From Saccostrea echinata (lineage: Eukaryota), in NCBI RefSeq assembly GCF_033153115.1, contig NW_026889779.1, positions 32,054,001-32,118,000 on the forward strand: DNA of 64,000 nucleotides, read 5' to 3'. Below the pieces are notes generated by a model. That model did no database searches and was not told where the DNA came from. It saw only the letters and a list, made by a program, of their open reading frames with translations. This document shows positions 26,607-32,600 of this stretch, piece after piece (the first letter of the stretch is position 1; the number at the start of each line of letters is the position of its first letter). Made by a program: the position numbers and the translations under genes.

Positions 26607-29600
26607 TGAGAATACATGGGGCAAAGAAGAATTTTAATCTGGTTTTATGCCAAAAAAATTGTCAGTGAGTATATCTTATTTTTTTTTTGCTTCAGCCAGA
26701 ACTTGAAGAAAGACTTAGAGATGTTGCCATAGCAACTAGGCATACAAAGAAAAATAAAGGATTTTACAGAAATTTGTTGATGTATGGCCCCCCTGGAACA
26801 GGAAAGACAATGTTTGCCAAGGTATGGTGTTTAGGGCATGGCAGAGTTGTCTCTCTTTATTCTTTTGAAAAATATATTGTTTTTTGATCACTAAAATTTA
26901 TTCATCACTTTTTAGGAACAACCAAAAATATTTCATATATCTGAAAGCATTTAAATAGATGTAAGACTTAAATTATCATGTAGCAATAAGTTTCATAATG
27001 TGTCTTCTATAAAATAATGAAAGTGGAGTATTACATTATCTTTACAATTTTTTTTTTTACCAAAAGCTTAAGAAGTAATTCATTTATCAGAGGAATTTTT
27101 GGAGAATATAACCAATGGTGGAGAGATTTTTTGGAAAATAAAAACAAAGCCTGAAGGGCAAAGTTTTCATTATGTAAAAAAATCTCAAGATTGAAGGATA
27201 TATTTTCCAACAATTCTGACAACAGGGAATTATTTCCATTCTGTTACGGCAAGTTTTTTAAACTCCTATAAATAGAACAGGAGAAGCTGGATTACAGTGT
27301 TATCGGAACAGAAGCATCTTGTGATGTTGTAATTGAATGCTACTTCTTGTTCATTTGGATTTCACACAGTAGAAAAACTCCTGTGTAATCCGAATCCAAA
27401 GTAAACTTTTTTCCACCAATTTTTCTCACAATCAGAAGAAGCCTTGATCCCTTTCCCAAATGAACACAGTCAAAATTAGAGGAAACCTATTTAAAATTTC
27501 TGATAATTTGTTGATGATGTTTTTGATTTTTTGGAGATTAATAGCCACAACATTTCTTTGACCTTCTCAATAACCGTAAATGAATATCAATCATATGTGA
27601 TACAGGAACAATTTGTTAGTATGCCTTTTTCATTTCAAGGTGAACTATTGATGACAATACTATTTAAATATCTTTGTTATGAAAATTGATGTGATATGTT
27701 GTTAATTCTAGAGCCTTGCCCAACACTCTGGAATGGACTACGCCATAATGACAGGGGGAGATGTAGCCCCCATGGGCAAGGAGGGGGTCACTGCCATGCA
27801 CAAAGTGTTTGATTGGGCCAAGGCCAGCAGGAGAGGGTAAGATTTCAATCTGAAAAAATAAAAAAAAAGTGAAAATTAAGGTTACCATTTCAGTTGTTTT
27901 TACTATGACAAGAATTATTTATTTCAGGATTTATTTGAAGCATTAAGGACATACGCAACGTAGTTTGTACTTTATTGTCTTTTACCCTGGAGTTGAAGAG
28001 TTCCAATACTTAAAGGAACTGTTTGCTACATTTTAATGTCTATATATGATGTTGAACACTCCTTAAACAAGTTTGGATAAACAAAACATCTAGAATATAT
28101 GCTTAGAAATTTTTGTATATTTTTCTTTGAATTATACAAGAATTTTCTTCAATTTATATCTTTTCAAAACCTCTGGTAATGCATGTTTATTTTTTGTCTA
28201 CGAACATCTCATGGCACTTTAATCTTTAATTAAGAATATCTTGAAAAATTATCAGTGGGTAAGGTACTTTACGTATGTCCTTAACAATTATATTTGAATT
28301 TCTAGAGAAGTCAAGGAAAATTGAACTACATATAATATGTGTTTGGTATTCATTTCCTTCATTTCTTAATCATATTGTTCTCTGTCTTTAAGATGAGGTA
28401 GGTATATACGAGGGGTTATCAAAAAGTTCGTGGACTAGCGTCATAAAATTAAAACCGCTGAAGATACATCAATGAATTTTTAAACATTAAATAAGCATCT
28501 TCTTTTCTATCTGTAAAATAAACTATAAATCATAAGTTTTATTTTTTAGTGAATTGTAAATGTTTTTGTAAGCAATGGTATGTCGAGGCGGCGCAACCTC
28601 GAACATGACGTATTTTCTACCTGAGTGTAACTGTGAAAAACTCTTCTAATATGGGCATTTGTCATCAGAAAATCCCATTAATTCACTCGTGTGATATGAC
28701 ACAAATTTTCCGTAAAAGTTGCAATTTTTACCTCATTCTGTATGTTCTATGAAATTTCATCGTAAATTTTATAGGGAATATCCAAACAATAAAGGGGTTA
28801 AAAATGACGTCGAAAGGGGGGTAGGGTGTCATTTTACAACATTCTATAAAGTTTCAGCCCCTGGAAAACCTGACATAGACCTAGAAAATGTTAAAACAGG
28901 CTACAGAGAAATAAAATACACCCAGAGTACAGTGTACTTGTGTTTAAATACCAAAACAGATTCAGCAAGAAAAGAGACACACGGTTAATGTCGATTTGTA
29001 GTCAGGGTGTCCAAAGTCAGACACGTCGAAAAGCGACGTTGATCATTGGTTGACCTTGAACTCAGGCAAGAAAATAATGCTGGCAAAATCAAGCGAGGAT
29101 TTTTTCCTATGTATAGATTTAATATTTACAATATTAATGCATTGAAATCAGGTGTTCATGACATTGTGAAGTCATATAAACAAGACGGGATAAGGTCTTT
29201 ACTTTACTCCAGAGAATCTCATCAAGATAAGTGTATTGAGGCAGAGGGAGCGGGCATTGAGAAATAATGACGTTGTCGGACTTCATGAAACTAAACGGCG
29301 ACAGCGCCGAGTGATCATATAATGCCCTTTTTATTTAATGATAATTTGGCAAATTATCAACATATCAAGCTGAAATTTTCAACACTTCTTAAACTTTTGT
29401 TGTTTTATGTTCCCTACAAATTTTGTAATCAAAAACTACATAGTATTAATTTTATCGCATCAGTCCACGAACTTTTTGATAACCCCTCGTAAGTCACATT
29501 GTACTGTTTATTAATGAGATGGTAACTGTTTCTATTTCTAGGGTACTGTTATTTGTAGATGAGATGGTGACTTTTATTTTTAGGGTACTGTTATTTGTAG

Positions 29601-32600
29601 ATGAGATGGTAACTGTTTCTATTTTTAGGGTACTGTTATTTGTTAATGAGATGGTAACTGTTTCTATTTCTAGGGTACTGTTATTTGTAGATGAGATGGT
29701 GACTTTTATTTTTAGGGTACTGTTATTTGTAGATGAAATGGTAACTGTTTCTATTTTTAGGGTACTGTTATTTGTTGATGAGATGGTAACTGTTTCTATT
29801 TAGAGGGTACTGTTATTTGTAGATGAGATGGTAACTGTTTCTATATTTAGGGTACTGTTATTTGTTGATGAGATGGTAACTGTTTCTATTTTTAGGGTAC
29901 TTTTATTTGTAGATGAGATGGTAACTGTTTTTATTTTTAGGGTACTGTTATTTGTTGATGAGATGGTAACTTTCTATTTAGAGGGTACTGTTATTTGTAG
30001 ATGAGATGGTAACTGTTTCTATTTTAGGGTACTGTTATTTGTTGATGAAATGGTAACTGTTTCTATTTTAGGGTACTGTTATTTGTTGATGAAATGGTAA
30101 CTGTTTCTATTTTAGGGTACTGTTATTTGTTGATGAGGTGGTAACTTTCTATTTAGAGGGTACTGTTATTTGTAGATGAGATAGTAACTGTTTCTATTTT
30201 AGGGTACTGTTATTTGTTGATGAAATGGTAACTGTTTCTATTTTAGGGTACTGTTATTTGTTGATGAGATGGTAACTGTTTCTATTTATAGGATACTGTT
30301 ATTTGTAGATGAGATGGTAACTGTTTCTATTTTTAAGGTACTGTTATTTGTTGATGTGATGGTAACTGTTTCTATTTTTAGGGTACTGTTATTTGTTGAT
30401 GAAGCAGATGCCTTTCTTAGAAAAAGAAACAAGGTACACATACATATACTTGAACAATACAAATAAGCAGAAATATCTCCTTCATTGTTTGACTGTAAAG
30501 CCCTCTATTACTGATGCCTGTAATCTGAATCTGTCATTACAGGAACTCATCAGTGAAGACATGAGAGCCACGTTGAATGCATTCCTATACTGTACAGGAG
30601 AACAGTCCAACAAGTTTGTGTCATTTTGATTCTATGATCCCCTGTGGACAAATATTTTTTGCACTTCATGGTTACTGCTTATTTAAAAAAAACAAAGATA
30701 TTTGTATATGATTATATGCTTCCTGATTCTTTCATTTACAAAGCATTCTTGCATATAATTGCTGTGTATTTGATATGCAAGTAAACATTCTGTATATTTG
30801 TGCTCGAGGAAAGTTACAAGCATTAATCTTTATTTTTACTCGATGCAGAACATGAATCTGACAGAAAAAGAGTTAAAACTTGTTACAACTTGGTCGGCAT
30901 AACTTTTATCTGTACATTTATGAGGTTTGACATTAACTCTTATGAGTATTGGACCAGTCAGGATACTCCTATATTTTTACTAGCTCAGACTATAGAACCA
31001 CTAGCAATGACTGTGTCAGGATCAACTACAGTTTTTGATAGGCTGTTTAATAAACAAAGCTATTTTTAACAATACAGCTGCGACCCTGTATATTACAGTT
31101 TGGCAGAAAATAGCAACTGTGTCATGTTGGGAAATTTTCCTTTACATAGTGATGGCTGGGAATTTATAAATAATAAAATAAGTTAAAATATTTATTACGA
31201 AAGTCCAAAATAGGGGTTTACATTTATTTTATCCACACAACCAGTCGGTTTAGTTCACATACATTTTACACGACCAGACCACTCATTTACTAGACTGGCT
31301 CTGTCAGACTTTTCTTAGTGCCGAACTCTGATTTACTGTAAGTTAACAAAGTGACATTTTTTACCTTTAGATTTATGTTGGTATTAGCAAGTAACCAACC
31401 AGAGCAGTTTGACTGGGCAATTAACGACAGAATTGATGAAATGGTCGAGTTCAGTGTCCCTACGCTGGATGAGAGAGAGCGATTGGTCAGGCTCTACTTT
31501 GAACGATTTGTCCTTAAACCTTCAATGGAGGACAAAAGGTTAATTCTATTAATGTATATGCAGCATTAGAGAAAGGCTACATAAGAATTCACTACTCTTT
31601 CATAGTTTGTAACAACATTCCTGTAAAAAATTCCTGTAAAGAAGATCTTTATATTTTCTTAACCTTTATGAGTAAATATGTGGGCTTAATCAAGGAGGCT
31701 GTTAAATATTTTTCCGTGTTAAAAATTGGGGGGGGGGGTTATCACTAGAGCTTATTTGGCAGTAAGACAGGTTTATTTACTGTTTGCCGATGTCAGTTGT
31801 TAGAGCACCTGTTTAACAGTTCTCAAATCCAGTTTAAATATAAGTTAAGGCCAAGGCATGATTTTTGTTCATATATGTATATTTGGAGTATTAAAAGACA
31901 TTTAAATGTGGTAGTAGGAAAGATTTAACCAGGAGCTGGGGTTCAAATTTTAGTCTTGCTTCTTCGACTTTCTCTTTTCTGTTTCCCTTAGATTGTCTTA
32001 AATGTTATATTGAATTTGTGAGTTTTATATTCATTGCCTTGAATCCAGTGTTTATTTTGATGTTTTATTGATAGGTTAAAGCTGGCAGAGTTTGACTACA
32101 GTGCTAAGTGTACGGAGATATCCTTAAAAACAGAGGGCCTGTCAGGAAGAGAGATTTCAAAGCTGGGAGTAGCCTGGCAGGTAAGAGATACTAATTCTGT
32201 ACAGTTAAGGAAGTCATCACAGTTAAGGAAGTTATCACAGCTAAGGAAGTTATCACAGTTATAGACGATAACACATTAAGGAAGTTATCACAACTAAGGA
32301 AGTTATTACAGTTATAGACGTTAACACATTAAGGAAGTTATCACAACTAAGGAAGTTATCACAGTTATAGACGTTAACACATTAAGGAAGTTATCACAAC
32401 TAAGGAAGTTAACACAGTTATAGACGTTATTACATTAAGAAAGTTATCACAACTAAGGAAGTTATTACAGTTATAGACGTTAACACATTAAGGAAGTTAT
32501 CACAACTAAGGAAGTTATCACAGTTATAGACGTTAACACATTAAGGAAGTTATCACAACTAAGGAAGTTAACACAGTTATAGACGTTATTACATTAAGGA

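What the first reader, a model, noticed from the sequence alone, without database searches (positions are those of the whole stretch)
29500..30433. About 20 tandem copies of the ATAD3 Walker B acceptor site: a splice-site minisatellite
Seen: each 42-45-bp unit has a pyrimidine tract, AG, 25 nt encoding VLLFVDEM and a donor-like GTAACT, so it looks like an array of micro-exon cassettes. Only the last unit continues into the true exon. The 45- and 42-nt units are frame-preserving (ORFs 29519-29803 and 30269-30466), and the two units nearest the exon carry junction changes (TTTATAGGAT, TTTTAAGGTA). Known: 3' splice-site choice normally favours the first AG after the branch point, and Walker B is catalytic. 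Inference: the spliceosome must skip ~19 near-identical acceptors, or isoforms with duplicated or altered Walker B exist. With the exon 3 array, this gene shows two independent exon-boundary amplifications, a possible VNTR-tuned splicing mechanism or intron-gain intermediate.
Basis: partly seen in the sequence, partly recalled or inferred. Interest (0 to 1): 0.7.

Follow-up and report, generated by a model that had tools for sequence, protein, structure and literature searches.

The report
Splice-acceptor "mirage" minisatellite in ATAD3
The last 24 bases of an intron and the first 21 bases of the next exon of a mitochondrial ATPase gene (ATAD3) are repeated about 20 times head to tail, but the assembled transcripts examined enter the exon only at the last, genuine copy, so this is likely a tolerated repeat of a kind already known from lancelets and common in this genome rather than a splicing switch.

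Summary
The array is real: 19 units of 42-45 nt (29542-30381) precede ATAD3 exon 11 (30382-30433, Walker B). Each unit is 21 nt of exon start plus 24 nt of intron end. Of 19 pseudo-acceptors, 18 keep an AG, but only 2 would give a full-length protein; 16 lead to premature stops. The 25-nt 'micro-exon' shifts the frame, and 0 of 485 splice combinations rebuild the wild-type motif. Spliced contigs in 4 of 4 runs laid on the acceptor side (3 studies) join exon 10 directly to 30382; none covers the last three units. Contigs drop rare isoforms, and those animals' array lengths are unknown. This matches amphioxus 'mirages'. It is not unusual here: 29 of 81 hand-picked acceptor-pattern loci in this genome abut an exon-like frame (15 with Pfam hits; up to 145 copies). 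Loss of the nearest AG is not general (23 of 24 intact). One weak lead remains: in-frame spacing is rare among acceptor arrays (4 of 28), and my small replication was inconclusive. This scan has noted the same class before in other genomes and twice in this one. Verdict: new member of a known kind, low interest.

The parts
29507..30402 (+). Minisatellite: 19 full units of 42-45 nt plus partial ends; unit = first 21 nt of exon 11 + last 24 nt of intron 10
29501..29517 (+). 5' flank resembling the exon 11 start (8-nt exact match, then a shared ATGA at the crossover); likely the microhomology that seeded the first duplication, or a decayed copy
   Evidence: 250 of about 20000 random 24-mers from the window share 8 nt or more
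30380..30381 (+). Authentic 3' splice site AG of intron 10
   Evidence: exon 10 joined here in 4 of 4 runs
30382..30433 (+). ATAD3 exon 11, 52 nt, encodes [18 protein letters not shown] (Walker B; motif label recalled)
30245..30246 (+). Pseudo-acceptor AG, in frame and stop-free (+45 aa if used); not seen used
30290..30291 (+). Pseudo-acceptor AG, in frame and stop-free (+30 aa if used); not seen used
30335..30337 (+). Nearest pseudo-acceptor: AG changed to AA; the remaining AAG is shifted by 1 nt and leads to a premature stop
27712..27836 (+). ATAD3 exon 10; phase-2 donor of intron 10 at 27837
27837..30381 (+). Intron 10, 2545 nt; 27900-29500 is dispersed-repeat sequence with high contig depth
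23451..33636 (+). ATAD3 gene, 15 coding exons, 632 aa, no internal stop
   Evidence: Pfam ATAD3_N on 4 exons and AAA on exon 9; junctions of exons 9-15 seen in contigs
24446..24916 (+). Second, donor-side array at exon 3: four 77-nt copies, donors at 24485 (authentic), 24562 (GT to AT), 24639 and 24876

Best explanation
This is an intronic minisatellite made of the intron 10/exon 11 junction of ATAD3 (a 'mirage'), which likely arose by a microhomology-seeded duplication, likely expanded by slippage or unequal exchange, and is likely neutral, with the assembled mRNA using only the last copy. Shown: unit anatomy, frame consequences of each site, and the exon 10-to-30382 junction in contigs. Inferred origin: an intronic stretch about 40 nt upstream of the acceptor resembled the exon start, so misalignment duplicated the 45 nt between the two. 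Inferred choice of site: the last acceptor wins because it is paired across the short 52-nt exon with the donor at 30434 and keeps the purine-rich exon body that the copies lack (exon definition). Inferred safety net: rare use of 16 of the other sites would give premature stops and would be cleared by nonsense-mediated decay.
For: The same contig carries the exon 10 end and the exon 11 start back to back: X1 (2637 nt, record 1394-1521 then 1345-1395), X2 (1100 nt) and X5 (2462 nt); X7 shows the exon 10 end as the loose sequence before 30381. Depth is 0 on 30240-30371 in 4 of 4 runs. Only 3 of 49 AGs give the full frame, including the true one. The flank microhomology has about 1% chance. Units 1 and 4 are identical, unit 3 shares two flank variants, and a 43-44-44-4x pattern recurs, as expected from block duplication. 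The class recurs in the genome: 25 of 64 and 4 of 17 acceptor-pattern loci abut exon-like frames, 15 with Pfam hits at E<0.01; donor triples number 1026 and 1707 against reversed controls of 313 and 61. Amphioxus mirages with intact splice signals are reported not to disturb splicing.
Against: Only contigs were available, at depth 5-55; they drop rare isoforms, and decay would hide leaky products. The array genotype of the sequenced animals is unknown, one run is another organism, and no contig showed the array itself. Exon size does not exclude the sites at 30247 and 30292 (187- and 142-nt exons, normal for this gene), so why the last copy wins is not shown. The F7 paper notes that scanning is widely accepted for 3' sites and that duplicated-site experiments gave conflicting results. 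The nearest AG is lost in this array and the nearest GT in the exon 3 array, and in-frame spacing is rare among acceptor arrays (3 of 24); both could mean selection against leakage.
Confidence: 0.8

Rival explanations
1. Leaky but policed array: upstream acceptors are used at a low rate, out-of-frame products are degraded, and selection removed the most harmful competitor (the in-frame site 45 nt upstream) because a 15-aa insertion at Walker B would likely poison the ATPase oligomer.
For: The AG-to-AA change falls on the nearest of 19 sites. The nearest donor of the exon 3 array is also lost. The nearest spacing is a multiple of 3 in only 3 of 24 other exon-abutting acceptor arrays (P=0.02 against 1/3, post hoc) and 4 of 28 pooled (P=0.02). 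A dominant-negative ATAD3A variant is listed in PMC10419812 (passage).
Against: The nearest AG is intact in 23 of 24 other arrays against 188 of 198 distal sites (Fisher P=1.0). Four arrays keep an intact nearest AG at a multiple of 3 (L049, L078, L160 with stop-free inserts; L195, insert not translated). The pre-registered replication gave 1 of 4 (P=0.59). ATAD3 still keeps two in-frame sites. Edge units of mirage arrays are reported to escape homogenisation anyway. The AG-free 44 nt before the true site also precedes three other sites.
Confidence: 0.13
2. Regulated VNTR-tuned splicing or coding micro-exons that produce ATAD3 isoforms with duplicated or altered Walker B.
For: Two pseudo-acceptors and five 69-nt cassette combinations are in frame. 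Each unit has acceptor-like and donor-like motifs.
Against: No such junction appears in any contig. Single units shift the frame. In-frame inserts would read [17 protein letters not shown] or junk sequence ahead of the real motif.
Confidence: 0.03
3. Intron-gain intermediate: a unit is being recruited as a new exon that would split exon 11.
For: The model was proposed for mirages in PMC3087553. Tandem genomic duplication is a recognised route to new introns (PMC3443670 passages). Exon 11 has internal AGs at +23 and +26.
Against: 0 of 485 acceptor/donor/second-acceptor combinations give the wild-type protein; the 76 in-frame ones all delete, add or change residues. The duplicated segment straddles an existing acceptor rather than an exonic AGGT.
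Confidence: 0.02
4. Assembly artefact: the array is absent or much shorter in the animal.
For: No raw DNA reads could be laid; no contig covered the last three units.
Against: The 19 units fall into 16 distinct sequences with structured shared variants, which read error or mis-joining would not produce. The contig is 36 Mb long, and many comparable arrays lie elsewhere in the genome.
Confidence: 0.02

Closest known systems
Amphioxus 'mirage' minisatellites (Adh3, globins BflGb6/BflGb9, troponin C, PGBD5); PMC3087553 and PMC3902484, passages read; Canestro et al. 2002 (PMC117041) not held
   Same: Tandem copies of an intron/exon boundary. BflGb6 repeats the intron 3' end plus the exon start, as here. 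Many but not all copies keep splice signals, the mRNA is spliced normally, the edge units are divergent, and the same intron-gain model was suggested.
   Different: Different phylum; 45-nt unit and 20 copies against 150-160 nt and 3-6 copies in BflGb6. Length polymorphism and somatic instability are reported there but were not testable at this locus.
Human F7 intron 7 37-bp VNTR (PMC1557585; abstract and Discussion read)
   Same: Minisatellite whose terminal unit spans a splice junction; identical pseudo-sites stay silent; the site next to the exon body is the one used.
   Different: It is donor-side, where the used site is transcribed first and 5'-to-3' scanning explains the choice. Here the used acceptor is transcribed last, so that model does not carry over.
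Intron gain by tandem genomic duplication (PMC3443670; passages read)
   Same: A tandem duplication that multiplies splice-like signals.
   Different: That route duplicates an exonic AGGT and creates a new intron. Here an existing acceptor is duplicated, all copies stay inside the old intron, and no in-frame route to the wild-type protein exists.

Membership tests
Mirage minisatellite (amphioxus definition) | Tandem repeat whose unit spans an exon-intron boundary | tested here: met
   Unit = 21 nt exon 11 + 24 nt intron 10; boundary confirmed by spliced contigs
Mirage minisatellite (amphioxus definition) | Many but not all copies keep AG/GT splice signals | tested here: met
   18 of 19 pseudo-acceptors keep AG
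Mirage minisatellite (amphioxus definition) | Normal mRNA is made from the authentic site | tested here: met
   Exon 10 joined to 30382 in 4 of 4 runs, contigs only; rare isoforms not excluded
Mirage minisatellite (amphioxus definition) | Length instability between alleles or cells | not testable with these tools
   No raw DNA run listed; one copy of the locus in the assembly. Another acceptor array occurs as 14 and 4 copies between 88-91% identical flanks, as alleles or paralogues
Micro-exon cassette array | Frame-preserving exons flanked by spliceable introns | tested here: not met
   25-nt exon, 20-nt gap; 5 of 171 pairs in frame, all junk
Micro-exon cassette array | Inclusion seen in transcripts | tested here: not met
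   No contig includes a unit
Intron gain by tandem duplication | New donor/acceptor pair that leaves the coding sequence intact | tested here: not met
   0 of 485 combinations give the wild-type protein
Splicing-regulatory VNTR | Isoform ratio depends on copy number | not testable with these tools
   Needs matched genotypes and deep RNA reads
ATAD3 (host gene) | ATAD3_N domain followed by an AAA ATPase domain | tested here: met
   PF12037 above cut-off on 4 exons; PF00004 above cut-off on exon 9

The most novel reading that the evidence does not exclude
This genome may hold hundreds or more of splice-junction minisatellites, and the acceptor-side ones may be filtered by reading frame: upstream copies leak, out-of-frame arrays survive behind nonsense-mediated decay, and in-frame ones are purged or patched. 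The ATAD3 array would then be a rare in-frame survivor over a catalytic motif, rescued by loss of its nearest AG. The class would be a natural library for testing how the spliceosome picks the last of up to 145 near-identical acceptors.
Probability: 0.13. Interest if true: 0.55.

Novelty: new member of a known kind. Interest (0 to 1): 0.2.

Why it matters
The locus itself looks harmless and belongs to a described class. The value lies in the class: arrays with many near-identical acceptors in which the last-transcribed copy is used cannot be explained by first-come scanning, so they offer natural constructs for testing exon definition. They can also mislead gene prediction. I found no paper on such arrays in bivalves in two search listings (titles and abstract starts only, open-access library).

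Tried and rejected
No RNA holder on record and no raw-read run was listed; 5 of the 10 listed runs were laid (X1, X2, X5 twice; X6 and X7 once). X6's contig ends 1 nt past exon 10 and says nothing on the junction. A protein search with the three-unit plus exon 11 frame against longer proteins scored nothing among 5 candidates; this is weak and not used as evidence. A degenerate exon 11 pattern found 0 matches in metagenome contigs, so no orthologous intron was available to polarise the flank. Rejected: 'nearest pseudo-site is killed' as a rule (23 of 24 acceptors and 15 of 16 donors intact). Rejected: a unique AG-exclusion zone at the true site (44 nt also before 30072, 30116 and 30247). Rejected: genome-wide depletion of acceptor triples, suggested by one pattern (139 vs 287) but not by three others (219 vs 226, 2041 vs 706, 790 vs 748). 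Donor arrays looked enriched for multiples of 3 (9 of 16), but the periods read from a new listing were mostly not (28, 28, 50, 53, 55, 55-58 against 54 and about 30, exons not checked). RNA structure as a mask for the pseudo-sites: z -2.3 and -1.7 with poorly defined ensembles, no clear discrimination. A blind 464-kb TRF sample (37 arrays) gave too few candidates; one donor-like array there (L047) showed no clear exon. Literature searches for an acceptor-side human VNTR or duplicated-acceptor experiments returned nothing usable.
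Full report
Observation. Tandem Repeats Finder reports an array at 29507-30402 with period 45, 20.2 copies and 90% matches. Splitting it at the exon-start motif gives 20 in-register positions from 29542 to 30382, that is 19 full units of 42-45 nt and the true exon. 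The 19 units fall into 16 distinct sequences. All 9 matches of a 351-nt query in the 923-Mb assembly lie inside this array, so it is locus-specific.

Host gene. Fifteen exons from 23451 to 33636, all with GT-AG introns, give a 632-aa protein without internal stop. Pfam ATAD3_N scores above cut-off on four exons and AAA on exon 9; 8 peptides were scanned, and 3 gave no informative hit. Exon 11 is 30382-30433 and encodes [18 protein letters not shown]; the Walker B label is recalled from AAA+ consensus. Earlier AI notes call this genome a rock oyster; I did not verify the species.

Anatomy and origin. The unit is the first 21 nt of exon 11 followed by the last 24 nt of intron 10. The 'VLLFVDEM' and the donor-like GTAACT are therefore by-products of abutting exon start and intron end. 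The 5' flank (29501-29517) shares 8 exact bases with the exon start, which 250 of about 20000 random 24-mers from the window do. Unit 3 shares two variants with that flank, units 1 and 4 are identical, and a 43-44-44-4x pattern occurs twice. I infer a microhomology-seeded duplication followed by block-wise expansion. The flank could instead be a decayed copy; no orthologous intron was found to decide.

What each site would yield. Of 19 pseudo-acceptors, 15 end in TAG, 3 in GAG and the nearest in TAA. Sixteen lead to premature stops. Of 49 AGs in the region only three give the full frame: 30245 (+45 aa), 30290 (+30 aa) and the true one. A single-unit exon is 25 nt and shifts the frame; 5 of 171 acceptor-donor pairs are in frame, all 69 nt of junk. 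None of 485 combinations, including second acceptors inside exon 11, restores the wild-type protein. The micro-exon and intron-gain readings fail on sequence alone.

Transcripts. Ten runs were listed, all as contigs and none on record as RNA; five were laid. They carry GT-AG joints at the predicted introns, so they derive from spliced RNA. In X1, X2 and X5 one contig (2637, 1100 and 2462 nt) holds the end of exon 10 and the start of exon 11 back to back; X7 shows the exon 10 end as the loose sequence before 30381. No contig covers 30240-30371 in 4 of 4 runs. These runs span three studies and two organisms. X6 was uninformative.

How common is it. Exact triple-motif searches (spacing 28-58 nt; overlapping matches, so one long array counts many times) gave 1026 and 1707 donor-type matches against reversed controls of 313 and 61. 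Acceptor-type matches were 139, 219, 2041 and 790 against 287, 226, 706 and 748, so only one of four patterns is enriched. I picked loci from the first 100 rows of each listing and left out most recurring transposon-like and satellite families. Of 64 acceptor loci, I called 25 exon-abutting: 12 with Pfam hits at E<0.01 (3 above the whole-protein cut-off; two are the same myosin exon) and 13 by open frame alone. L074, L115, L116, L119 and L155 were ambiguous or paralogous and were left out. Of 17 further loci, 4 were exon-abutting, 3 with Pfam hits, and one has 145 copies of 53 nt. Of 23 donor loci I called 16 exon-abutting; 3 of 17 peptides had Pfam hits. None of these other loci has RNA support here. 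A 20-copy acceptor array is therefore unexceptional in this genome.

Are the terminal changes special. The nearest pseudo-acceptor keeps its AG in 23 of 24 other arrays, like distal sites (188 of 198). Three arrays keep an in-frame, stop-free, intact nearest site. So the AG-to-AA change in ATAD3 is not a rule. Nearest spacing was a multiple of 3 in 3 of 24 acceptor arrays (P=0.02, post hoc). I recorded a replication plan before seeing new data; it gave 1 of 4 (P=0.59), pooled 4 of 28 (P=0.02), or 5 of 29 with ATAD3 (P=0.045). This is a hint from hand-picked loci, not a result.

Mechanism. I favour exon definition: the last acceptor pairs across a 52-nt exon with the donor at 30434 and alone is followed by the full purine-rich exon body. 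This step is inferred, and exon size does not by itself exclude 30247 or 30292. The 'first AG after the branch point' rule does not apply as stated, because each unit has its own branch-point-like motif (consensus recalled). An AG-free zone of 44 nt is not unique to the true site, and folding gave no clear masking. The F7 paper's Discussion notes that scanning is widely accepted for 3' sites and that duplicated-site experiments disagreed, so the choice of the last copy remains an open mechanistic point.

Comparison with what is known. PMC3087553 (passages) describes amphioxus 'mirages', including BflGb6, which repeats an intron 3' end plus exon start; many copies keep splice signals, splicing is reported as normal, lengths vary between haplotypes, and an intron-gain model is proposed. 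PMC3902484 (passages) adds Adh, troponin C and PGBD5. PMC1557585 (abstract and Discussion) is the human donor-side case. PMC3443670 and PMC10419812 were seen as passages. The original Adh paper was not held. I did not open the supplement of PMC3087553, whose unit alignment bears on how many amphioxus copies keep their AG. Two searches on oysters and bivalves listed no paper on this class (listings only). The scan's own notes report the class in 79 findings over at least 16 genomes and two donor-side cases in this genome; these are unchecked and were not used as evidence.

Verdict. A real, ordinary new member of a known class. Interest 0.2. The only lead worth more work is at class level: a genome-wide test of reading-frame bias and of how the last acceptor is chosen.

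Noticed in passing
window 24673-24827: 155-bp insertion with 16-bp terminal inverted repeats and AATGA on both sides (5-bp target-duplication-like) inside copy 3 of the exon 3 donor array; looks like a small non-autonomous DNA transposon.
   Followed up: partly
window 24446-24916: In the exon 3 donor array the copy next to the true donor has GT changed to AT, while copies 3 and 4 keep GT. Contigs leave 992 and 986 nt upstream of exon 9 against 951 coding nt, which fits use of the first donor.
   Followed up: partly
window 32201-32766: A third minisatellite in ATAD3 (18/53-nt periods) starts about 20 nt downstream of the exon 14 donor but does not include the splice site.
   Followed up: no
window 27900-29500: Intron 10 holds dispersed repeats with contig depth up to about 1900 in the laid runs, so probably transposon-derived sequence.
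   Followed up: no
L201 (G000:C8:7214000-7223900), array ending at 9016: 145 copies of a 53-nt acceptor unit, 144 of 144 upstream AGs intact, directly before an exon-like frame ending in GTAAGT; no Pfam hit.
   Followed up: partly
L068 (C5) and L125 (C36): The same myosin-head exon is preceded by 14 and 4 copies of a 44-nt acceptor unit, with flanks 88-91% identical: alleles, haplotigs or recent paralogues differing in copy number.
   Followed up: partly
L163 (G000:C29:2493500-2501500), around 3524-3700: One exon is flanked by a 35-copy acceptor array upstream and what looks like a donor array immediately downstream.
   Followed up: no
G000 genome-wide: Donor-motif triples are 3- and 28-fold above reversed controls, whereas acceptor-motif triples are enriched in only one of four patterns; donor-side arrays may be better tolerated (overlapping counts).
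   Followed up: partly
L195 (G000:C5:13607400-13613000), array ending at 2655: A 27-nt unit repeats only the intron end through the AG, with no exon bases, 25 times before a glutamate synthase exon.
   Followed up: partly
window 49525-50743 and L039:5156-6687: The same 162-bp satellite occurs twice within about 150 kb.
   Followed up: no
window 20898-21010: A 57-bp duplicated segment that also reads as an inverted repeat, about 2.4 kb upstream of the ATAD3 start.
   Followed up: no
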